Shown piece after piece: positions 13,225 through 53,318 of a DNA stretch of 54,384 nt (position 1 is its first letter; every line of letters starts with the position of its first letter). Location: IMG/VR virus record IMGVR_UViG_3300031951_000214, positions 1 through 54,384 of that record; one strand, given 5' to 3'. The notes beneath the pieces were generated by a model. It was not told the DNA's origin. It saw only the letters and a program-made list of their open reading frames with translations, and did not search any database. Source of the stretch: a virus. Lineage: Duplodnaviria; Caudoviricetes. The translations under genes were made by a program, and so were the position numbers.

Positions 13225-13420
13225 GCCCTACGATGAACCCGTCTGGTTGTTTCCCTATCCAGCCATGCTGGTGGGGGACAGCTTCTTTATACCGACTATG
13301 AAGCCCGCGTACTTGACGTATGCGGCTGATAACGCGGCAAAGAAAAGCGATGTAAAAGTAAAAATACACACCGTCACTGAAGACGGTGTTCTTGGCATAC
13401 GTGTTTGGCGCGTGTCTTAG
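13199..13420 (+). CDS. conserved small phage protein (FP..M.VGDSFFIP...GIRVWR)
   Basis: Recognisable motif; last + strand gene of the block. Confidence 0.75.
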   Translation: MKKLSSASKPYDEPVWLFPYPAMLVGDSFFIPTMKPAYLTYAADNAAKKSDVKVKIHTVTEDGVLGIRVWRVS

Positions 13421-16400
13421 GGCTTGACGTCAAGCATATCGAAGGCTTCAACCAACCTGTGCTTGACCAAGCTTGACATGTCGTTGAGTTGCTTGAGCTG
13501 CTCTTTGCGTTCCATGATGGTTAAATCTTTGTTTGCGCGAACTTGGTTTGCCATAGTGCGGATGTTGCGCAGCGTTCCATTTACTTGCGTGTTGTAAAAC
13601 TGTACGGCAGGATAAGCAGTGGGGTTGTCTTCCATAAATTTTTCCAACTGCTCTGGGCGGTCTTTAAGCGAATTAATGCGCTGCTCCATCTGTTTGACCT
13701 GCTTCTCAATGCTACTGAATTCACGGGCATCAATGTTTGATCTAGAGCCAATAAAACTACTGAGGAACACCATGTCATTCTTTGGATCAAATTCTTTTGC
13801 CCCAGCCACAGTCAATCCAACATTCGTTGCGCTTGAGGCCATCTTTGCCATACCATCAAAATAGTTGTTGGCAAAGAAGTACATGGTGTTTGGACTCCAG
13901 TCCACTGCGCCATTTGTTGCATCAAACAATTCTCTGGCAGCTTTCTTGTACATCTCTGGAATGTTGTCGCCACCTGTATAGGCATCGCCAAACCGTGATT
14001 GACGGTTGTTGTATATCTCACGCCCCAGACCATCCAAGTTCATCACATACTCAAAGAACGGACGGAACATAGATGGCGTTACTGAGTCCATAGCAAACGC
14101 TGGGAAATTGTCTATCGGACTGATACGCGATACCGGCAAGGGCAGGAATGAATCAACTCCAGTAACCAAGATGTTCCCAAACGCATCAAGTAGGGATGTC
14201 CTGCCAGATGCAATAGAAGCTATCTGCGCACCAGCAGATGCAAACGCGCCAAGACCGAAGCCCCAAGGGATTTGAATAATCAAGTCTGTGCCGGGTATGT
14301 GGAAGCGAGCGTTCCGAGTCCAGCGTGCCATGTCATCTGTAACAACTTTGTTACGACCTTGGTCATCGTCTTCTGCCATCATCAGCGCCATGTAATACAT
14401 AGCCACGCCTGTACCGATCAAACCTGTAGCCATGTACCGTGCATTAGTTTGACGTTGTTTGAGTTCTTTTACCGCGCTCTCAATCTGTTCTTCAGTGCGG
14501 CCCTGTGCAGCAGCCTCTTCTCTAAAGTTTGCTTCATTAAAACCAAACGCTGGAGCCAACGCCTCAATAGCTCTGACTGCACCTGTGGCAGCTGGACGGA
14601 AGAACATGAACAATGCGCCAGCACCCCTGCCCCAACGCCCTACCTGTTCAAAGTTGGCTAGGTTCTTGGCGTACTCAACTGCCTGAGCCTTAGCATCAGT
14701 TAGCGCATCAGCGTCGTTTTTAAACTTGCCACTTGACTTGTTCTCAGCAAAGAACTGATCCTTCAACATGCGGTATGTAGCGGCACGGCTAGACAATTCA
14801 AACATGTCGTTATAGATATCAATGAACTTATCTACCTGATCTTTCTTTTGCAAGATGCCACTGCGACCGATCTCTTTCATCAGTCCATCAAGCGCACCCT
14901 TGGCAGCAAGCCCTTGGAGATACGACACGCGACCACCCAACTGTACGTACTCAAGCAGGTCGGCATAGTATTGATCTTTAGCGGCAAGCTCTCTTAGCTT
15001 ATCGAACTTACCGTTTGCGTAAAGATTTGAGAACCGCACAGACTTAGCCATGCCACCACCAGCCACATCCGCAGCAACAGCAGTCAGCAATTGACCTGCC
15101 TTGACTGGGCCAAGTTCAGCGCCAAGCGTAAAGGCGTTAGTCAGCGCATCACGCACAAAGTTCATTGGTGCAAACGCTGGGTTATACCGTGTATGCATCT
15201 GCCCGATACCACTTGTAATAGAGTTAGCGATATCAATCAACGGTTGCGTTGTTCTGTATGAACGACGAATGGCTTCGCGTTGTTTTTCATCGTTTAGTTC
15301 AATGACGTCAATTGTTCCATCGGCGTTGTAGTGAAATATCTTGTTGCTTCCACCAATATCTTTTTTATCAAGATTACCCAAGAAGCGGTCTTCAAACTTG
15401 ATAGTGTCCTTAACTTTACCCATGAGTAATCTGTTCTTGGGGTCAACGGCATTCTTAATTGCCAGAGTCAAGTCTTTACGTCCAGCACGCATAGCAGCAG
15501 ACGCGCCATCCGCAAGGGATTGAAGTAATGGGTTCTCAGATTCAGACTCTCGCCCACCAAAAGGATTCTGGCCTTCTTGCAAGTCACCACCAATACGACG
15601 TGAGTCGATGTTGAACTCTTCGTCAATTTGCCTTAACCCCGGACGTCCTTTGAACGGCACATAGTCTTTAAAGTCATAGAAGTCAATCACGTTTGACGCG
15701 GGTTGTGAATGGTAGTTCGCCATCTTGTTCAGCGTTTGTGTCATTTGATTGACCTTACGCAAGGCTTCTACCACTGCCCCAACTTCTTTTTCTGTTTCAG
15801 GCGTTACACGTTCTTTAAGGATTGCAGCAATCTGTCGCGGCGTACGGTTTGCAATGACGTTGTACATCGCATTGTTTTGGTTAAACATTTCAGGCGTAGT
15901 GGGCTTCTTGTTTATTTGCTTTGCGTGAAATGTTTTATCGTCAACAACCTTATCCAACATGGCGCGTAGGTCAAGCGCGCGCTCTTTGCGTTTTTGATCC
16001 AGCTCGTTGATCTGATCCTGCGTCATCTCAGGCGTAACTTGGTAAGAAGGCTGCGCCAATTCACGCATCACCGCTTCCCTGAACCCTTCAGCAGAATATT
16101 CCTTGCCTTCAAACTTGATGCGCTTGCTTTCATTTTCAAGCGGCACAGTCTTTATGTACTTGACACGGCGGCGCTCAGGCTCGTGGCGCGCTTCCAAAAT
16201 AATGTGTAGACGTGCAAGCGCCTCATTGATAGTCAATCCAGATTTCTTTGCGTATGCTTCTACAGCTGCATGGGTTTCTTCAGTTGCGTTGCGTAAATAC
16301 TCGTCATACAGATTGACAGCCATACCAGCAGAACGTGTAATCTGCCCATATACATTGTTTAGATCAGGCCCAATACGTTTGAGCATCCCGAACAACCGCG

Positions 16401-19400
16401 CACGGTCTTCTACCACTTTAATTGGGTAGCGTTCGTTCTGGAACATAGTGGCCGCCCAATGGCCGCCCTTCTTGGTAAACAAATTACGCAAAAATGATTT
16501 GGCAGTCCGTTCTTTTAGCTGAACTTCAGACTCAGCTTGTGCTGCAAGTTGTTCATCAGACAGCTTTGACTCGTCGTAGGTTTCTGCCTGTTTCGTTTCA
16601 GTGGGCAGGGGAGCCATCTTGATAGCGTCTTTGGGGGCAGCCATGACGTATTCAAACGCGCCAAAGGTTTCAATCAACGCATTACGCGACTCAACAGTGT
16701 CTGGAATGCCAAGCACTTGGGCAACTGCTTTTACAAAGTTAGACCATGCGTTTTTAACTTGACCCCACAGTGAATTACTAGCAGGAATTTGAATGCGCTG
16801 TAATTCTTTTTGGAATGCGCGGTCAGTCACGGCGTAGGATACAAACTCGTAAATGTTTTCGTACGCAGCTGGATACTTTGCCTTAAGCTCCTTGCTAGTC
16901 TCTTTCATCAAGTAGTCAAGATGCACTGCGCCGTCTTCTTGCTTTTGAGACAGTTTGACTTCGCTTTCTTCAAACCCATACAGTACACGTAGGGTCCCGG
17001 CGTGCGCAAACTCATGCAGTAAGACAGTCTCTGTCTGTCCTTCTTTAGTCACTCGGACCGTATCAGTTTGAGGGTCGTACTCAGCGGGGCGGTTGTTTGG
17101 TAGACTTTTTACAACTTCAACTTTTGTCTTGAGCTTGAGCTTGTAAAGCGCCTGTGCAACAGCCCTATGCACTGGGTCTTGCGCAGAAGTGCGCAAGTAG
17201 TTTAGGAATGCCGTGGCGTTGTTATTGTCCAGTTGTTCTTCAACAAACTTAGGCAACGGTTTAGTTTTAGGCACGCCTTCAGGCTCAATGCCTTGCTTCT
17301 CGGCCAAGTACGCTGACAGTTTTTCAGCAGCTATATCGTGTTCAGGCTGGTTATTAGTCGCTAAACCTTCAAAGTAAACCTGTTTTTCTTCAGGTGACAA
17401 CGCGCCAAACTCAGGTAGATGTAACCGCGCATCGGGTTCAATACCGTTGTGGTATTCCCGTGTGTCTTCGTACATCTGTTGTTCTTCAGGAGTTACCTCT
17501 ACTGTTGGTTCGGCAATGGGCGCTTCTTGTCCTTGCGTTTCTGTTTCGACGGCTTCAGGGGTTTCAGTGCCAACTTGGTCTCCTTGTTGTTCGGTGGTAG
17601 CTTCTGCTTGTTTAGCCGCGCTTTCTTGTATGTCAAGCTGCGCCCATTCACTAAATAAATTAGTGCGTTGTTTGTCAAGGGCTTCCCACTGTTTGAATTT
17701 TTCTGTACCCCTCTTTGGAGCACGCCCATCTTTAGACAATAGCGCGCGTTGCTGTTCATCAATAGCACTAATTTCGTTTTGCACCATATCTTTGGTGCGA
17801 GTTTCTAGGTCTGATTTACCTTGCTGCGTAATTTCTTCAACAGGCGCTTCAAAACTTGGTACGTCTTCAAGTTCTATTTTTTCCCCTGTAATAGGATGTA
17901 CAGAAGGAAAATCTTCTATGTCTGCGTCAATAGGAAGCTGATTTACTGTAATGGGTGGCTGTTTTTCTCCTGCAATAGGCTGCACAGCATCCGGTCCAGC
18001 AGGAACCACTCCAAGTCCGTCAGGTTCTGCAAGTCCTTCGGTGGGTACGACTGTATCGGGCTGTCCAGCCACTGGAACGCTTGTTCCACCTGCTGTGGTG
18101 TCAGTTGGTCCAACATCTGGCGTTCCTTTCTGAGCTGTTTGTAGAGTCTTAATCTTGTATTCGACGCTTCGCTGTTTGTTTCTTTTTCCACTTAATAAAC
18201 CTTGTTCTCTTGGCGTAATAGTGCCGTCTCGTTGTTTTTGCTCAAGTGCTTTAATTTCAGCAGCTCTTTTATCAAAATCAGCAATCAATACATCAAGCTG
18301 AGTAGCTGGCGCTCCAGTAGGCACAACGGCAGGGGCTATACCTTCAGGCGCAATCTCAAACCCAGACACATCACGCTGCACTGTAGTAGGCGCAAGTTCA
18401 GGCTCTACACCTAACTCAGCATCAGCAGGCACTTCAACATCTGCCAAACCTTTGGTCTGAATCTTCTGTGCTTCAGCCGCAGCTTCAGGCCCCTTGCCAA
18501 GCACTACGTCTGCAACGCCAGTAATGCCAGCACCACCAAGCCCGCCCTTGAGTCCAGCGTTGATGAATCGTTCAAAATTCTGCGGTGTGAAGAACCCAAG
18601 GTTCTGGTCAACAAAATTCTCAGCAGCCGCGCTTGATACTTCTTGCAACGCTTCAGTGCCGCCTTCAGTTACAAAGCCTTTGGCTACGCCCGTGCCTGCA
18701 CGTTTGTACCAAGCCGCGCCTAATTCTTCAGGACCGATACCAGACAGCTTGGCTTTGCGTAATAGACTTATAGGTAACGCAGCGTCCAGCACAGCGTTAA
18801 AGCTACCAAACGCAATCGCTGTACCAAGGTCTTGTTGCCCTGTGGCTTCGTAAATGTTCTGGTAAACATCAGGTATGTTCTGTGCCGCAGAGCCAGCCAA
18901 CGCGCCACCTGCTTCATACTTGAGTGCGGTCTGCCGCGCAGCTTGGATTCCCGCTTGCGTCGCAGCTTGCTTTAATTCTTCACCAGCCAAACCTTTGGCG
19001 GCTTGTGCCAAAACAGCTTTCTCCGCTGTAGCCTGCGCAGCAGCTACTGCACCACGCCCTAGGATAGCTGCTGTGCCACCAGTAAACAAACTTGGTATGA
19101 GAGAGGGCAGAGCTTCGCCAACTGCTTCCTTGGCATACACCAGCGCATCGCTAACATCTTTAATGTCAGTGTATGACGGTACTTCAGCTGGATATTTTTT
19201 GGCGATTTCTTCCTGAGACTTTGCAGCCTCCTGCATCTGCTGCGCAGCATACTCATCTGCGCCAACTGCTCTACCAGCCATAGCAGGCAAGATGTCACCC
19301 AACAACACACCGGTTTGCGCAGCGCCACGTTTGATGGACGGAATGAAGCCAGTTTCCGGTTTTTTTACCGGGGTAGGAGGAGCCTCGGGTTCTTGCATCA

Positions 19401-19506
19401 AATTAAAATAATCTGACGCCAACATTTTTACGGCATCTACTGGTAGGCCATCAGGCCCTTCAAAGTTATAAACCTTCCCGCCGGAACGTACTTTGTAGGT
19501 TGCCAT
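13417..19506 (-). CDS. giant internal virion/ejection protein (large polyvalent protein; zincin-like HExxH, LPD38-like C-terminus)
   Basis: 2029 aa; Gly/Ala hydrophobic N-terminus, acidic linker, LLHEFAH, C-terminal NFVRD / FMFF / IPWGFG segments. Confidence 0.8.
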   Translation of the reverse strand: MATYKVRSGGKVYNFEGPDGLPVDAVKMLASDYFNLMQEPEAPPTPVKKPETGFIPSIKRGAAQTGVLLGDILPAMAGRAVGADEYAAQQMQEAAKSQEEIAKKYPAEVPSYTDIKDVSDALVYAKEAVGEALPSLIPSLFTGGTAAILGRGAVAAAQATAEKAVLAQAAKGLAGEELKQAATQAGIQAARQTALKYEAGGALAGSAAQNIPDVYQNIYEATGQQDLGTAIAFGSFNAVLDAALPISLLRKAKLSGIGPEELGAAWYKRAGTGVAKGFVTEGGTEALQEVSSAAAENFVDQNLGFFTPQNFERFINAGLKGGLGGAGITGVADVVLGKGPEAAAEAQKIQTKGLADVEVPADAELGVEPELAPTTVQRDVSGFEIAPEGIAPAVVPTGAPATQLDVLIADFDKRAAEIKALEQKQRDGTITPREQGLLSGKRNKQRSVEYKIKTLQTAQKGTPDVGPTDTTAGGTSVPVAGQPDTVVPTEGLAEPDGLGVVPAGPDAVQPIAGEKQPPITVNQLPIDADIEDFPSVHPITGEKIELEDVPSFEAPVEEITQQGKSDLETRTKDMVQNEISAIDEQQRALLSKDGRAPKRGTEKFKQWEALDKQRTNLFSEWAQLDIQESAAKQAEATTEQQGDQVGTETPEAVETETQGQEAPIAEPTVEVTPEEQQMYEDTREYHNGIEPDARLHLPEFGALSPEEKQVYFEGLATNNQPEHDIAAEKLSAYLAEKQGIEPEGVPKTKPLPKFVEEQLDNNNATAFLNYLRTSAQDPVHRAVAQALYKLKLKTKVEVVKSLPNNRPAEYDPQTDTVRVTKEGQTETVLLHEFAHAGTLRVLYGFEESEVKLSQKQEDGAVHLDYLMKETSKELKAKYPAAYENIYEFVSYAVTDRAFQKELQRIQIPASNSLWGQVKNAWSNFVKAVAQVLGIPDTVESRNALIETFGAFEYVMAAPKDAIKMAPLPTETKQAETYDESKLSDEQLAAQAESEVQLKERTAKSFLRNLFTKKGGHWAATMFQNERYPIKVVEDRARLFGMLKRIGPDLNNVYGQITRSAGMAVNLYDEYLRNATEETHAAVEAYAKKSGLTINEALARLHIILEARHEPERRRVKYIKTVPLENESKRIKFEGKEYSAEGFREAVMRELAQPSYQVTPEMTQDQINELDQKRKERALDLRAMLDKVVDDKTFHAKQINKKPTTPEMFNQNNAMYNVIANRTPRQIAAILKERVTPETEKEVGAVVEALRKVNQMTQTLNKMANYHSQPASNVIDFYDFKDYVPFKGRPGLRQIDEEFNIDSRRIGGDLQEGQNPFGGRESESENPLLQSLADGASAAMRAGRKDLTLAIKNAVDPKNRLLMGKVKDTIKFEDRFLGNLDKKDIGGSNKIFHYNADGTIDVIELNDEKQREAIRRSYRTTQPLIDIANSITSGIGQMHTRYNPAFAPMNFVRDALTNAFTLGAELGPVKAGQLLTAVAADVAGGGMAKSVRFSNLYANGKFDKLRELAAKDQYYADLLEYVQLGGRVSYLQGLAAKGALDGLMKEIGRSGILQKKDQVDKFIDIYNDMFELSSRAATYRMLKDQFFAENKSSGKFKNDADALTDAKAQAVEYAKNLANFEQVGRWGRGAGALFMFFRPAATGAVRAIEALAPAFGFNEANFREEAAAQGRTEEQIESAVKELKQRQTNARYMATGLIGTGVAMYYMALMMAEDDDQGRNKVVTDDMARWTRNARFHIPGTDLIIQIPWGFGLGAFASAGAQIASIASGRTSLLDAFGNILVTGVDSFLPLPVSRISPIDNFPAFAMDSVTPSMFRPFFEYVMNLDGLGREIYNNRQSRFGDAYTGGDNIPEMYKKAARELFDATNGAVDWSPNTMYFFANNYFDGMAKMASSATNVGLTVAGAKEFDPKNDMVFLSSFIGSRSNIDAREFSSIEKQVKQMEQRINSLKDRPEQLEKFMEDNPTAYPAVQFYNTQVNGTLRNIRTMANQVRANKDLTIMERKEQLKQLNDMSSLVKHRLVEAFDMLDVKP
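17499..17573 (-). CDS. putative overprinted basic peptide (24 aa)
   Basis: AAGGAG 6 nt before TTG; MALKPLKPSKQKRKDKKRPLPNQQ. Confidence 0.35.
   Translation of the reverse strand: MALKPLKPSKQKRKDKKRPLPNQQ
17943..18116 (-). CDS. putative overprinted gene (57 aa) nested in the giant protein
   Basis: AAAGGA 7 nt before ATG; protein-like amphipathic sequence MLDQLTPQQVEQAFQWL... Confidence 0.55.
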   Translation of the reverse strand: MLDQLTPQQVEQAFQWLDSPIQSYPPKDLQNLTDLEWFLLDRMLCSLLQEKNSHPLQ

Positions 19507-19509
19507 GTT

Positions 19510-21972
19510 TTAATCCAGATCAATTATGTCGTCATCGTCTTTTGAAGAGGATATCCCAGTCATACCAAACCCAGTTGTGATTGGTAAATATTTTTTCATG
19601 GCTTGGTTTAGCATACGGTCATAGTCTTCTGGTTTCACCGTTCCCATACCGCCTCTGATCTTTGAATCAACTTCTTTTTGCGCCAACTTCATAGCTTCAG
19701 CTCTACTTCTTGCTACGTATTGCATACCACGCAGACCAGCAGTGCCAGACCTAGCAGCAATTTGCTGCCTTTGTAAGTTTTCTCTGGCTTGATTTGCGCG
19801 AATGGTTTCATCAAGCTGTCGTTGTGCCTGTTTGATAGTCTCTTGTTGTTGCTGCAAAATACGCATGTTTTGTGCGGCGCTCATTGCAGTTGCAGAGTCA
19901 TTCTTACGTGTGGCGATGTTAAATTTACGCATCTCCATTTGCAGCTTCATGTCGTTAGCATCTGCGGCAGCAGCAAGTTTTTCGCTCTCAGCAAAAGATG
20001 CAGCCAACGTAGGTGCAGCTGCTGAAGCGCTCCCAAGTAGACCAGCGATACCTTGACCTTTACTTTCTCTACCAGTCTTGGAAGCCTGAGCAGCCATATT
20101 AAAACCAAACTCAGCCAAGGCTTTACCCAAGGCTTTCTCTTTGATTTCTTTTGACTTGCCTGATTGTTTGTCTATTAGTTCTTGCAACCCCTTGAGGTCT
20201 TCTTTGCTTTCATTTTGTAACTTTTCCCGCACTTTATCGTACATGGCCATAAAGTCTTCTTTGGGCACACCCTGCTCTTCAGCCATCTTTGTGACGGCTT
20301 TATCTAGGGCAGGGCTAAGTTTTTTCTGTTTTGGCGCAGGCGCAACTTTTTTGTCATTTGTTTTTACTTGAGCGGCACGAGACGCATTTCTCATTGCATC
20401 AGTTTTATTTGATGCATCAACAGCAGAAGCGCTTGCTGCTGTTTTAGGTTTTTCAGTAGTTGCTTTTGCTTTCCATGCGGGTTCGTTTGTAATACGCTGA
20501 AGAAAACTTAATGAGTTTGGGTTGACTGGCGCATCGTATATTTCGCTTGCTCCAGTTCCCATTGGGTCAGAAACCATGTCCCCATCAGCAAACGCAACGA
20601 TACCGCCGCCAGCCATCATTTCTTCTTGGCGCTCTTGTGGAATTTGGTCAAACGCTGAACCCAGTCCGTAATTTATAGAAGCTGACTGCGCTTGTATTGC
20701 ATTCAATTGAGCAATGCGTTCATCAATCGCTGCTACGGTGTCCATGTCACGACGGTTCAAAGCAGCTTCTTTGGCTATCTGCAAACCTTCAATGCTATAC
20801 ATGTCATCAACGATAGCGTCTTTGTTGCCTTGACTTGTTACCTCTCCTCCGTCAGCGTACCCAGCTAAACCGCCGCCTGCTTTACCCGGAGTGGGGGAAT
20901 CAAACATCCCCATTTTGCTTAAACCGTAAGCGCCCATACCGATACCACCAAGCTGGCCCATCAAGTTGGGCGGGGCTGCGTAAACCGACTGAGTTGATTG
21001 TTGACCCAACGGCAAGCCACGGATCATGTCGGACATGAAGCCCAACTGTTTATACGGATAGTTCTGTTGGTTTAGGAAATCCTGATACGCCATGTCCAGC
21101 GGACGCTGGGCTTGCTGCTGTTGCTGTGCGCCCAATTGACTTTGCAACTGAGTGATACCCATTCTTTGACCATACTCGGTTTGACCAAGTTGACCTAACT
21201 GACCTGCGGCTTGCAATCCAGTTTGGAGACCCTGCATACCCAAACCAGCGCCGTACTGGCGTGACTGCTCACCCATGCCTTGAGCTTGTAAACGCCGAGC
21301 CTGATCACGTTCAAATTGCTGCTGGGCGTTTTGAAACGCAGCTTGCCGACCTGTAGCCTCAATGCCTTGAAGCTGAGAATTTAAAGAACGCTGTGCTTCA
21401 GCATCTATGATTGCCGACCTGCTGCCACCAAACGCACCTTGTTTTACTGCTTGGGCTTGACGCATCGGTTGAGCGATTTGAAAATCCCGTAAAGCCTGAG
21501 CTTTCTGGTAATCCACCACATTTTTAGCGTATGGATCCATGTAATCTTGAGCGGCTTGTTCGTTAAATTGACCGCCATAAAATCTACCACCTTGGTAATT
21601 TGTACCGAGCGCACCAAGACCCGCCATGCCAGCAATGCTAGAACCAAGCCCTACTTGTTGGGATGGCTGCATCTGTTCTGCTGTCTCAAATGTTCTTTGT
21701 TGCAAAGGCTGAAACCCAGCAATCCGCTCACCACCGTACTGTTGGTATGGGTTTTTACTTATATCGGTAAGCGCCGCGCCTTTTGCCAGCGTATCTTTGG
21801 CATAGCCTTTGGCCCAGTCAGGCAGTTCAACAACTTGTGTGGTTTTCTCGGGCGTGCTTGGAGAGCCACCCATGTCGTACAGCCTTATTTTTCCGCCTTC
21901 TTTTTTAAACGCACGTAGATCGCCAGCGGGCGTATCCAATAAAGCCAATTGACGTTGATAATTGCGACTCAT
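19510..21972 (-). CDS. internal virion / DNA ejection (pilot-like) protein
   Basis: Gln/Gly/Ala-rich helical protein next to the giant protein; GAFGGSR motif. Confidence 0.7.
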   Translation of the reverse strand: MSRNYQRQLALLDTPAGDLRAFKKEGGKIRLYDMGGSPSTPEKTTQVVELPDWAKGYAKDTLAKGAALTDISKNPYQQYGGERIAGFQPLQQRTFETAEQMQPSQQVGLGSSIAGMAGLGALGTNYQGGRFYGGQFNEQAAQDYMDPYAKNVVDYQKAQALRDFQIAQPMRQAQAVKQGAFGGSRSAIIDAEAQRSLNSQLQGIEATGRQAAFQNAQQQFERDQARRLQAQGMGEQSRQYGAGLGMQGLQTGLQAAGQLGQLGQTEYGQRMGITQLQSQLGAQQQQQAQRPLDMAYQDFLNQQNYPYKQLGFMSDMIRGLPLGQQSTQSVYAAPPNLMGQLGGIGMGAYGLSKMGMFDSPTPGKAGGGLAGYADGGEVTSQGNKDAIVDDMYSIEGLQIAKEAALNRRDMDTVAAIDERIAQLNAIQAQSASINYGLGSAFDQIPQERQEEMMAGGGIVAFADGDMVSDPMGTGASEIYDAPVNPNSLSFLQRITNEPAWKAKATTEKPKTAASASAVDASNKTDAMRNASRAAQVKTNDKKVAPAPKQKKLSPALDKAVTKMAEEQGVPKEDFMAMYDKVREKLQNESKEDLKGLQELIDKQSGKSKEIKEKALGKALAEFGFNMAAQASKTGRESKGQGIAGLLGSASAAAPTLAASFAESEKLAAAADANDMKLQMEMRKFNIATRKNDSATAMSAAQNMRILQQQQETIKQAQRQLDETIRANQARENLQRQQIAARSGTAGLRGMQYVARSRAEAMKLAQKEVDSKIRGGMGTVKPEDYDRMLNQAMKKYLPITTGFGMTGISSSKDDDDIIDLD

Positions 21973-51800: not shown

Positions 51801-53318
51801 TTACACCGTGTAGTACCGCTCAGCGCGGCGACTTTTAAAATACTGAATATCATCAGGTTCGTCGTTTGGCAACCTGATGAAACCTCCCTGACGGAATCTC
51901 GCAAGGGCTTGTGTAGTTGAGTCAACCAAGTCGTCGTTTGTGCCGCTTGGAAAGTCGTTGCACTCCTCAATAACCTCTTGCGCCCATCTGCGGTCCGGTG
52001 CCCATACTATCCCTGAAGAAAACAAGTCAGAGACAGCATTTACACGGGCGATCTTATCCTGTCCTTTACCCGGCGTAAACTCCCCAACAGGCACTCCCAT
52101 GCGTCTAAATTCTTGATACAGAGCTGCTCCGTTGGACTTCTTCTCCACCACAAACGCATCTGGCCCCCACTCTTTGTACTCCTCCAGCACCATCTTCTTC
52201 AGTTCTGGAAACTCCATGCGTTTTTTGATGGCGTTGAGCAATATGATGTTGTAATTGTTCGTGTTCTCATTGAAGAACACGCCCCATGTGGTCAGGGCGT
52301 TGTAGTCAGCGCGGGTGTTGGCTTCTTGTGCGGCGTCCAGACTCATAATAATGAACTCGCAGTTGGGTGGTGGGGCATCTTGATCCCATATCTGCCACCA
52401 CTCCCTTTTTATCAGCGCACCTTCCTCTGATACGGGGTTCTGCATGTACTGGGCTTCCCAGTACCGCACGTCCATGCCAGCCTTTTTGGACAACAACTCC
52501 TCAATCGACCAGAACTCGCCCCACAACGGCTTGTCATTCAATATGGCAGGGAACTCAACGACCTCCCAGTCGTCTACACCCTCTTCTCGACCCATCTGGC
52601 TGATGATCTGGCCTGTCAAATCTAGTTTTGACCACCGAGTCATCACAATGATAATAGCGCCTCCCGGCATAAGACGCTGCAAAGGGCCAGACTGGAACCA
52701 CTCCCAAGCAGGGAGAAAAACATCGGGGCGTCCAGTTTTTGCGTCTTGTTCAGAATGAGGGTCATCAATGATGAAAAGGTCCGCACCACGGCCAGCCAAA
52801 GCGCCGCCAACACCAATTGCAAAGTATTCACCTTGGGCATTTGTTCCCCATCTTGAAGCTGATTTACTGTCAGATTGCAGTTCTACGCCCGGAAAAATGT
52901 CTTTGTAGTTATCTGAACCTACAAGATTACGAACGCGGCGACCAAAATTAACAGCCAAATCTGCTGTGTGAGACGCCATAATGACCTTCTTATGGGGGAA
53001 TTTGCCCAAAAACCATGCTGGCGCAAGATAGGAAATGAGTTCAGATTTGCCATGTCGAGGCGCAATATTAACAATGACACGCTTTTTCTTTCCGTTGGCG
53101 ATGTCTTCGAAGATTTTAGCGAGCCTGCGATGATGCGGGCCAACTTTATAGCCGGGGTAGACGTGATCCGCGAACTCCAAAAGCAAATCTTTGCCCAAAT
53201 TCTGCACAGATTGGGCATCCCAGACCTTGATAAGTTCAAGAATTTTGCGTTTTTCATCATTTGACGCTGTTGGCAACAGGTTTTTCAGAGTTTCTATCTG
53301 TTCCCGTGTAACTTTCAC
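51801..53318 (-). CDS. terL: terminase large subunit
   Basis: APRHGKS, IIDDP, MTRW, YMQNP, RNase H-like DAA / DDLVDS. Confidence 0.95.
   Translation of the reverse strand: MKVTREQIETLKNLLPTASNDEKRKILELIKVWDAQSVQNLGKDLLLEFADHVYPGYKVGPHHRRLAKIFEDIANGKKKRVIVNIAPRHGKSELISYLAPAWFLGKFPHKKVIMASHTADLAVNFGRRVRNLVGSDNYKDIFPGVELQSDSKSASRWGTNAQGEYFAIGVGGALAGRGADLFIIDDPHSEQDAKTGRPDVFLPAWEWFQSGPLQRLMPGGAIIIVMTRWSKLDLTGQIISQMGREEGVDDWEVVEFPAILNDKPLWGEFWSIEELLSKKAGMDVRYWEAQYMQNPVSEEGALIKREWWQIWDQDAPPPNCEFIIMSLDAAQEANTRADYNALTTWGVFFNENTNNYNIILLNAIKKRMEFPELKKMVLEEYKEWGPDAFVVEKKSNGAALYQEFRRMGVPVGEFTPGKGQDKIARVNAVSDLFSSGIVWAPDRRWAQEVIEECNDFPSGTNDDLVDSTTQALARFRQGGFIRLPNDEPDDIQYFKSRRAERYYTV

What the first reader, a model, noticed from the sequence alone, without database searches (positions are those of the whole stretch)
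17943..18129. Overprinted 57-aa gene inside the giant ejection protein
Seen: in a shifted frame on the same strand, AAAGGA sits 7 nt before ATG 18116. The product MLDQLTPQQVEQAFQWLDSPIQSYPPKDLQNLTDLEWFLLDRMLCSLLQEKNSHPLQ has a clear amphipathic helical pattern, while the host frame here is a disordered Pro/Gly/Val linker. Inference: the nested frame is the constrained one, encoding a hidden small protein such as a chaperone or inhibitor of the giant protein. Standard gene callers would miss it.
Basis: partly seen in the sequence, partly recalled or inferred. Interest (0 to 1): 0.75.

Follow-up and report, generated by a model that had tools for sequence, protein, structure and literature searches.

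The report
Hidden small gene inside giant phage gene
A 57-codon gene read in a shifted frame inside a 2029-codon phage virion-protein gene is real and conserved across many uncultivated phages, often better than the giant gene around it, but what its small acidic protein does is still unknown.

Summary
Window 17943-18116 (-) is a 57-codon ORF in the +1 frame of a 2029-codon polyvalent/ejection-type gene (13417-19506, -). On its own the ORF is not beyond chance: 5 such ORFs were seen against 2.7 expected. The comparative evidence is decisive. The same ORF is nested in the same frame of a giant ORF in 125 of 125 related loci from 121 distinct contigs. It has ATG or GTG in 77 of 77 unique copies, a GGAG-type Shine-Dalgarno site, a length of 56-58 codons and a conserved stop. 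Only here in the host gene is the host's third codon position the most conserved. Changes that are silent in the nested frame are 2.3-fold enriched, and changes silent only in the host frame are 0.49-fold depleted. Nucleotide conservation starts at the ribosome-binding site and ends at the stop codon. The product is acidic (pI 4.2), is predicted as a two-helix hairpin, and matches no known family. Host proteins shuffle their domains, but 83 of 85 keep an HExxH zincin-like domain downstream. Function is inferred only: an accessory (chaperone or regulator) of the giant protein at about 35-40%, an independent effector at about 30%. No translation data exist.

The parts
18124..18129 (-). Shine-Dalgarno-like site (AAAGGA) 7 nt upstream of the nested start codon
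   Evidence: Read. In 77 unique family copies a GGAG-type core is present in 76, ending 6 nt before the start in 61. Column entropy drops to 0.11-0.66 bits at -10 to -7, while positions further upstream stay at 1.3-1.9 bits.
17943..18116 (-). Nested 57-codon gene (ATG 18116-18114, TAA 17945-17943) in the +1 frame of the giant gene. Product is 6.8 kDa with pI 4.23.
   Evidence: Conserved ORF in 125 of 125 loci. Coding-type position pattern. Substitution classes. pI and mass. Two-helix AF2 model.
13417..19506 (-). Host gene: a 2029-aa giant polyvalent/ejection-type virion protein
   Evidence: ORF. Pfam LPD38 at 68 bits (cut-off 27). Weak PHROG hits to virion proteins. The host frame has no stop across the overlap in 77 of 77 unique copies.
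16480..17268 (-). HExxH (plus a downstream Glu) zincin-like domain of the host protein, aa 747-1009, with the motif at aa 831-835 (window 17002-17016). It is the one host domain that accompanies the nested gene almost everywhere.
   Evidence: An iterated HMM finds it in 83 of 85 host proteins. H85, E86, H89, E141 and F142 are invariant in 48 sequences. AF2 pLDDT 78.8. Foldseek gives only weak hits, best E 0.05, mostly zinc peptidases.
13795..14337 (-). LPD38 domain of the host protein (aa 1724-1904)
   Evidence: Pfam PF18857, E 1.5e-18.
19510..21972 (-). Context: upstream 820-aa gene with a PHROG 'DNA ejection protein' match
   Evidence: phrog_4287, E 5.4e-25.

Best explanation
This is a genuine protein-coding gene overprinted on the giant gene. 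SHOWN by comparison: a 56-58-codon ORF sits in the +1 frame of a giant polyvalent/ejection-protein gene, has its own GGAG-type ribosome-binding site, ATG/GTG start and fixed stop, and is under purifying selection in its own frame. The host frame there only has to stay open and reads as a Gly/Ala/Pro/Thr/Val linker. INFERRED mechanism: ribosomes start internally on the giant gene's mRNA (no promoter-like site lies nearby). They make a 6.8-kDa acidic two-helix hairpin protein at the same time and place as the giant protein. INFERRED role (my odds about 35-40%): a dedicated accessory of the giant protein. It could be a chaperone that keeps it competent for packaging or ejection, or a regulator or inhibitor of its zincin-like domain, with the gene-in-gene layout guaranteeing co-inheritance and co-expression. 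The confidence given below is for the gene being real and independently translated, not for the role.
For: (1) The ORF is open in the same frame of a giant ORF in 16 of 16 loci found through the host protein (host identity 39-92%). The same holds in 80 of 80, 25 of 25 and 4 of 4 loci found through the small protein. The total is 125 of 125 loci on 121 distinct contigs, with no free-standing copy. (2) Of 77 unique copies, 74 start with ATG and 3 with GTG, the length is 56-58 aa, and a GGAG-type core is present in 76, ending 6 nt before the start in 61. (3) Entropy at nested codon positions 1/2/3 is 0.80/0.50/0.98 bits. Pairwise protein identity is 0.568 in the nested frame against 0.38 in the host frame, and the nested frame is higher in 120 of 120 pairs. 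(4) Along the whole host gene, third-position entropy is 1.2-1.6 bits. It falls to 0.61-1.02 bits, below the first position, only in the windows that start at codons 438-495. (5) On 70 minimum-spanning-tree edges, changes that are nonsynonymous in the host but synonymous in the nested frame number 935 (2.30 times their share of possible changes). The reverse class numbers 268 (0.49 times). (6) Nucleotide conservation begins at -10 and ends at the stop codon, and the flanks are at 1.6-2.0 bits. (7) The third frame is stop-free in only 7 of 77 copies, while the host frame is stop-free in 77 of 77. (8) The family is large: 308 tblastn-confirmed IMG/VR stretches, 169 database proteins and 239 representatives of 50%-identity clusters. 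(9) For the role: host proteins share the window's N- or C-terminal domains in only about 37-42% of 84 cases, and 10 of 84 give no blastp hit. All carry the nested gene, and 83 of 85 carry the HExxH domain, which lies downstream of the nested gene in all 82 host ORFs where the distance was measured (92-1257 aa). The small protein is acidic across the family (pI 4.06-5.23).
Against: There is no direct evidence of translation: no proteomics and no ribosome profiling. No cultured phage carries the gene (tblastn against 50,697 phage records gave a best E of 5). All sequences are uncultivated contigs and are related to one another, so the counts are not independent events. Of the 125 loci, 109 were retrieved by similarity to the small protein itself. 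That biases the comparison 'nested more conserved than host domain', though not the nesting count. For the proposed role there is no homology, fold match or contact evidence at all. Permanent nesting could equally mean that an overprinted gene simply cannot move.
Confidence: 0.9

Rival explanations
1. It is a real gene, but functionally independent of the giant protein. The small acidic protein would be a host-takeover or anti-defence effector, effectively one more 'valence' of a counter-defence locus. It arose by overprinting in a permissive linker and has been locked there since.
For: The product is small, acidic and helical, and matches no known family. Polyvalent proteins are described as conflict weaponry (passage read in PMC5512222). 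The host linker imposes almost no constraint. Codon usage weakly favours the host frame as the older one: 0.62 against 0.57, with the nested frame higher in only 23 of 84.
Against: It was never found free-standing in 109 loci retrieved through the small protein alone, despite heavy domain shuffling of the hosts. It is expressed from a gene whose neighbours are virion genes, which would be late for a takeover protein (inference). None of this is decisive.
Confidence: 0.3
2. It is not an independent gene. Ribosomes translating the giant gene would enter the +1 frame by programmed frameshifting, giving a truncated N-terminal protein with a 57-aa alternative tail.
For: SD-like sequences can stimulate frameshifting (recalled, for example RF2). 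In the window the +1 frame is open for 25 codons upstream of the ATG. One database protein (P0224) reads from the host frame into the nested frame.
Against: A stop in the nested frame lies 5 codons or fewer upstream of the start in 16 of 77 unique copies and directly next to it in 3. The first codon is ATG or GTG in 77 of 77, which a frameshift would not need. The 6 nt between SD and start vary (0.97-1.57 bits), so no conserved slippery site exists there. P0224 switches frame in the middle of the ORF and is a single record, so an indel or an assembly error explains it.
Confidence: 0.04
3. It is not a gene. The conservation would reflect a nucleic-acid element (a packaging, regulatory or RNA structure) or a constrained host-frame motif, and the ORF would be a by-product.
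For: The single-sequence ORF is within chance. The host-frame peptide also shows recurring residues across relatives.
Against: The conservation has three-base periodicity in the nested frame, with position 2 the most conserved and position 3 the least. It starts at an SD and start codon and ends at a stop codon. Substitutions avoid nested-frame amino-acid changes, and nested identity exceeds host-frame identity in 120 of 120 pairs. Amino-acid replacements are conservative, and the model folds with confidence.
Confidence: 0.03

Closest known systems
Lambda Rz/Rz1 embedded spanin genes (recalled from general knowledge, not from a call)
   Same: A small gene lies wholly nested in the +1 frame of a larger same-strand phage gene, has its own ribosome-binding site and start, and is expressed with the larger gene. 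In that system the two products work together.
   Different: Rz1 is a secreted lipoprotein with a signal peptide and lipobox. This product has no N-terminal hydrophobic signal and no conserved Cys. The host here is a roughly 2000-3000-aa polyvalent virion protein, not a lysis protein. Spanin genes also occur overlapped or separated, whereas this gene was nested in 125 of 125 loci.
Overprinted genes of Microviridae such as phiX174 E within D and B within A (recalled; the reviews PMC8227390 and PMC3494269 were seen only in search listings)
   Same: They are same-strand out-of-frame genes created on top of an existing gene, with the new frame under its own selection.
   Different: Those cases sit in tiny ssDNA genomes under strong size pressure. 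This case is in a dsDNA phage of at least 54 kb. Here the nested frame is the more constrained one and the host frame is reduced to a linker.
Rpn 'genes-within-genes' toxin-antitoxin (PMC10327210; only the abstract start in the listing was seen)
   Same: A small protein is translated separately from inside the gene of a large protein and, there, directly blocks the large protein. It is a precedent for an intragenic inhibitor whose linkage cannot be broken.
   Different: RpnS is in-frame (the C-terminal domain of RpnL) and belongs to a bacterial defence system. Here the small protein is out of frame, shares no residues with its host, and no inhibition has been shown.
Tail assembly chaperones (Pfam Phage_TAC_7, gpG/gpE type)
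   Same: Both are small, acidic, helical phage proteins. TACs serve a very long protein that is later ejected (role recalled).
   Different: This is not a member. Only 2 of 69 family members touch PF10109, the one inspected at 19.3 bits against a cut-off of 25, and the model finds nothing in the window at E up to 10. There is no frameshift product.
Phage polyvalent proteins with LPD domains and a processing metallopeptidase, such as phi24B gp47 (passages read in PMC5512222, and in preprint 10.64898/2026.04.10.717836)
   Same: The HOST gene fits this class. It is giant and multidomain, with LPD38 and an HExxH domain. Relatives carry LPD39 and other modules. gp47 is reported as abundant in virions and is proposed to be an ejection protein.
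   Different: Neither text mentions an overlapping gene. 'overlapping' and 'frameshift' each occur 0 times in PMC5512222. Cultured Stx and Vibrio phages match only host aa 1279-1866, at about 23% identity in the rows listed, and single-sequence tblastn finds no copy of the small protein in them.

Membership tests
Same-strand overprinted (nested) protein-coding gene | The alternative-frame ORF is kept open in homologues well beyond chance | tested here: met
   Open in 125 of 125 loci. Six control +1 ORFs of the same host gene are open in 0-5 of 8-16 relatives. The third frame is open in 7 of 77.
Same-strand overprinted (nested) protein-coding gene | Its own translation start: a conserved start codon and ribosome-binding site | tested here: met
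   74 ATG and 3 GTG in 77 unique copies. A GGAG-type core is present in 76 of 77, with 6-nt spacing in 61. An entropy minimum lies at -10 to -7 and at the start codon.
Same-strand overprinted (nested) protein-coding gene | Purifying selection acts on the nested frame | tested here: met
   Position entropy is 0.80/0.50/0.98 bits. The host third position is the most conserved only here. Substitution classes are 2.30-fold against 0.49-fold. This was not a tree-based dN/dS.
Same-strand overprinted (nested) protein-coding gene | The host frame is also translated through the overlap | tested here: met
   The host frame has no stop in 77 of 77 copies, and giant ORFs of 1775-3184 aa run across the overlap. 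Translation itself is inferred.
Same-strand overprinted (nested) protein-coding gene | The protein product is detected | not testable with these tools
   No proteomics or ribosome profiling is available. Only a 183-nt contig from one RNA library covers 18044-18226, which does not show translation.
Pfam PF10109 Phage_TAC_7 (tail assembly chaperone) | Score at or above the curated cut-off of 25 bits | tested here: not met
   0 hits for the window protein. 2 of 69 family members match, best E 6.6e-05. L017 scores 19.3 bits over profile positions 45-76 of 79.
Embedded o-spanin (Rz1 type) | An N-terminal signal peptide with a lipobox Cys | tested here: not met
   The sequence starts with a polar, acidic stretch. 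Its only Cys is at position 45 and is not conserved. The feature list for the family is recalled.
Programmed-frameshift product | The new frame is open upstream to a conserved slippery site, and no start codon is needed | tested here: not met
   Stops lie 5 codons or fewer upstream in 16 of 77 copies and adjacent in 3. The start codon is invariant as ATG/GTG. The spacer is variable.
Phage-type polyvalent protein (for the HOST gene) | A giant multidomain protein carrying LPD domains | tested here: met
   LPD38 at 68 bits, above the cut-off of 27. The relative L021 has LPD39 at 29.8 bits, above 27.
Phage-type polyvalent protein (for the HOST gene) | A zincin-like processing metallopeptidase domain | tested here: inconclusive
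   The HExxH and downstream Glu are invariant in 48 sequences, and the domain is found in 83 of 85 hosts. However, no Pfam or NCBIfam model matches, and Foldseek's best E is 0.05.
Phage-type polyvalent protein (for the HOST gene) | Packaged in the virion and delivered into the host | not testable with these tools
   Known only by analogy to phi24B gp47 (passage) and from neighbouring virion and ejection genes.

The most novel reading that the evidence does not exclude
The nested gene would be the constant core of a mobile 'linker cassette' in phage polyvalent ejection proteins. It would encode an out-of-frame intragenic partner, a chaperone or a brake on the zincin-like processing domain, made from the same mRNA as the giant protein. 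No recombination event that shuffles the giant protein's domains could then separate the protein from its keeper. That would be a new class: an overprinted, cis-linked regulator of a virion-delivered polyprotein.
Probability: 0.25. Interest if true: 0.85.

Novelty: new variant of a known kind. Interest (0 to 1): 0.72.

Why it matters
Fully nested, out-of-frame genes are textbook cases in tiny phages and in spanin loci, but they are rarely documented in large dsDNA phage structural genes. Here one is conserved down to about 30% protein identity. At least 308 IMG/VR stretches and 239 clusters at 50% identity carry it, all unnamed. It stays in place while the surrounding giant gene swaps its domains. 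The result adds a widespread, unannotated protein family to phage genomes. It shows that 'disordered linkers' of giant virion proteins can hide the more strongly selected frame. It also gives a concrete handle on how polyvalent/ejection proteins are handled before packaging, because a knockout that is silent in the host frame is possible. In addition, it is a clean natural test case for overlapping-gene detection methods and for gene callers that forbid nested genes.

Tried and rejected
Known-family searches for the small protein were all negative or sub-threshold.
- Pfam.
- PHROGs. The only recurring hit is phrog_5825 (unknown function), matched by 14 of 69 members with a best E of 0.022.
- NCBIfam.
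- PDB sequences: best E 0.97.
- Foldseek against PDB and BFVD: best E 5.3 and 2.5.
- ESM Atlas: no usable hit.

The tail-assembly-chaperone homology was considered because of the PF10109 hits. I rejected it as membership.

Co-folding of the HExxH domain (A6) with the small protein (A4) returned 'no answer', score 0.00 against a mark of 0.32, and the controls were not run. This is not evidence either way. A homodimer and other host domains could not be tried because the cap is one job.

RNA evidence was sought with one search. It gave only small shares (0.09 or less). Laying 4 runs showed one 183-nt contig from an RNA library over 18044-18226 and one 37-nt piece over 17977-18013. No transcription or translation claim can be made from this.

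The promoter scan of 17700-18500 found 0 promoter-like sites, and 1 terminator-like site on the other strand, which is within chance.

Codon usage as a guide to which frame is older gave 0.62 for the host frame, 0.57 for the nested frame and 0.75 elsewhere in the host gene. This only weakly favours the host frame as ancestral.

The genome-contig scan gave one true locus, L099, on a contig of a Polaromonas MAG, plus two partial matches that I regard as spurious (L100, L101). It is a weak host clue only.

P0200, a basic and divergent member, gave no viral locus.

Literature searches returned no paper describing a gene nested in a polyvalent or ejection protein gene. These were keyword searches, not sequence searches, and supplementary files were not consulted.
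Full report
OBSERVATION. On the minus strand, AAAGGA (18129-18124) is followed after 7 nt by ATG (18116-18114). It lies in the +1 frame of a 2029-codon ORF (13417-19506, minus strand). Nested codon position 1 is host position 2, and the overlap covers host codons 464-522. The window is an uncultivated virus record estimated at 86% complete. It carries DNA polymerase, helicase, primase, portal and terminase genes, and a 'DNA ejection protein' gene lies directly upstream of the giant gene.

IS THE ORF ALONE MORE THAN CHANCE? No. The host gene has 5 ATG-ORFs of 57 aa or more in its +1/+2 frames. Shuffling synonymous codons gives 2.7 on average, and 97% of shuffles have at least one. The case rests on comparison.

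COMPARATIVE EVIDENCE. The host protein retrieved 17 viral loci at 39-92% identity, and 16 of them cover the region.
- In 16 of 16 the +1 frame is open over the homologous stretch. It begins with ATG (GTG in one), often just after stops in that frame, and ends at the same place.
- The six other +1-frame ATG-ORFs of 40 aa or more in the window's host gene are open in only 0-5 of 8-16 relatives, whereas this one is open in 15 of 15.
- In the overlap, entropy at nested codon positions 1/2/3 is 0.80/0.50/0.98 bits. Pairwise identity is 0.568 in the nested frame against 0.38 in the host frame, and the nested frame is higher in 120 of 120 pairs.
- I slid a 57-codon window over the whole host alignment. 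Host third-position entropy is 1.2-1.6 bits everywhere except the windows that start at codons 438-495. There it falls to 0.61-1.02 bits, below the first position.
- With 71 unique 57-codon copies, I classified differences on 70 minimum-spanning-tree edges. 935 are nonsynonymous in the host but synonymous in the nested frame, which is 2.30 times their share of possible changes. 268 are the reverse, 0.49 times their share.
- I anchored the sequences without gaps at the ORF. Nucleotide conservation then begins at -10 (the GGAG core, 0.11-0.66 bits), includes the start codon and stops at the stop codon. Both flanks sit at 1.6-2.0 bits.
- The host frame has no stop in 77 of 77 unique copies, while the third frame is open in only 7 of 77. 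This is therefore a true dual-coding stretch in which the nested frame carries most of the constraint.

BREADTH. A profile of the small protein (A2) matched 308 tblastn-confirmed stretches in IMG/VR, of which the best 80 were returned. More divergent queries added further loci.
- The A5 alignment gave 24 loci, one of them on a contig already held.
- The single protein P0221 gave 4 loci.
- A genome scan gave one locus.
- The ORF is nested in the same relative frame of a giant ORF in 80 of 80, 25 of 25 and 4 of 4 of these loci. Complete host ORFs are 1775-3184 aa.
- With the first 16, the total is 125 of 125 loci on 121 distinct contigs.
- 109 of these loci were found through the small protein alone, so a free-standing copy could have appeared. 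None did.
- Among 77 unique copies there are 74 ATG and 3 GTG starts, lengths of 56-58 aa, and a GGAG-type core in 76, with 6-nt spacing in 61.
- The protein databases hold 169 matching proteins and 239 representatives of 50%-identity clusters. All are unnamed or 'hypothetical', without Pfam domains, and the match sits at the C-terminal end of nearly all of them.

THE HOST. The window's giant protein has an LPD38 domain and an HExxH motif at aa 831.
- A passage of a 2026 preprint reports phi24B gp47 (2811 aa, LPD38 plus a MuF-C peptidase) as abundant in virions and proposes it as an ejection protein.
- Cultured Stx and Vibrio phages match only host aa 1279-1866, at about 23% identity in the rows listed.
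- Among 84 distinct complete hosts that carry the nested gene, only about 37-42% share blastp similarity with the window's N- or C-terminal domains, and 10 share none. Others carry LPD39 or a sub-threshold HATPase_c match.
- The constant companion is a domain around HExxH. An iterated HMM finds it in 83 of 85 hosts, and H, E, H and a downstream E-F are invariant in 48 sequences.
- That domain lies downstream of the nested gene in all 82 host ORFs where the distance was measured, by 92-1257 aa with a median of 287. The nested gene itself sits at 13-33% of host length.
- The domain's fold model (pLDDT 78.8) gives only weak Foldseek hits, mostly zinc peptidases. I therefore call it zincin-like, not a proven peptidase.

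THE PRODUCT. It is 6.8 kDa with pI 4.23 and net charge about -5, and the family pI ranges from 4.06 to 5.23.
- It is 33% large hydrophobic residues, against 3.9% for the host frame on the same DNA.
- AlphaFold2 with 15 sequences gives two helices (7-18 and 34-53) joined by a Pro-rich loop, at pLDDT 82.8.
- M1, L5, Q9, E11, A13, L17, P26, L29, W37, L47, E50 and K51 are invariant in A2. In the 69-member A4 alignment only P26 is invariant, and seven positions are 90% or more conserved.
- No known family, solved structure or predicted viral structure matches.

MECHANISM.
- Shown: there is a conserved, independently startable ORF under purifying selection.
- Inferred: translation starts internally on the giant gene's mRNA. 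No promoter-like site lies nearby, and the SD and start codon are the only conserved upstream features.
- Role, by inference only: the gene never leaves the giant gene while that gene's domains are exchanged, and it always precedes the zincin-like domain. I therefore favour, at about 35-40%, an accessory of the giant protein, meaning a chaperone for a long ejected protein or a brake on its processing domain. The gene-in-gene layout would guarantee linkage and co-expression.
- An independent effector that is simply locked in place by overprinting is nearly as likely, at about 30%.

RIVALS. Frameshifting is unlikely. Stops lie 5 codons or fewer upstream of the start in 16 of 77 copies, the start codon is ATG/GTG throughout, and the spacer varies. 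A non-coding element is excluded by the codon periodicity and the substitution pattern.

CAVEATS. All evidence is comparative and comes from related, uncultivated contigs. No translation data exist. The statement that the nested protein is more conserved than the HExxH domain (median identity to the window 0.61 against 0.24, higher in 77 of 79) is biased, because most loci were selected by small-protein similarity.

NOVELTY. Overprinted phage genes are a known kind. This family, its location inside polyvalent/ejection protein genes and its persistence through host domain shuffling were not found in five keyword searches of the literature.

Noticed in passing
Protein P0224 (database protein, 266 aa): It reads the host frame into the first half of the overlap and then switches to the nested frame in the loop between the two helices. 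This is probably an indel or an assembly error in that contig. A natural frame-switch variant was not excluded.
   Followed up: no
Loci L018-L129; host ORFs listed: The giant host proteins are mosaics. N- and C-terminal domains differ between phages (LPD38 in the window, LPD39 and a sub-threshold HATPase_c match in L021). The nested gene and the HExxH domain persist throughout. L092 and L093 have an HExxH motif, but the domain HMM does not detect it.
   Followed up: partly
L008:2001-7232: The host reading frame of this relative is interrupted. Its longest ORF starts only at locus position 2819, although the nested ORF downstream is intact. The cause may be a frameshift or an assembly error.
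   Followed up: no
L099 (contig of a Polaromonas MAG): This is the only full-length copy found in 185,579 species genomes. It lies on an 18.6-kb contig binned with a Polaromonas MAG and is nested in a 2328-aa ORF. It is a weak clue to the host range, and the scarcity of copies in these genomes hints, weakly, at a lytic lifestyle for these phages.
   Followed up: partly
Alignment A4; phrog_5825: 14 of 69 family members give weak hits (best E 0.022) to the same 208-position PHROG of unknown function. For the window protein the hit covers residues 1-25 against profile positions 144-168. This may be a shared short helix motif or it may be noise.
   Followed up: no
window 18117-19506 (-), host aa 1-463: The N-terminal part of the giant protein is rich in Gly/Ala and has several hydrophobic stretches (read). 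It gives a weak PHROG 'virion structural protein' hit at aa 75-152 and no Pfam or NCBIfam match.
   Followed up: no
window 51801-53318 (-): The large terminase is closest (42-52% identity) to uncultured-type podophages: phage DSL-LC04, Pelagibacter phages HTVC027P/023P, and Synechococcus/Planktothrix phages. By organism name, at most one of these records appears among the 282 that match the giant protein.
   Followed up: partly
window 18044-18226: A 183-nt contig from a wastewater metatranscriptome library (run X2) matches with 2 differences and spans the nested gene's SD and start. A near-identical phage therefore occurs in that sample, but transcription is not shown.
   Followed up: partly
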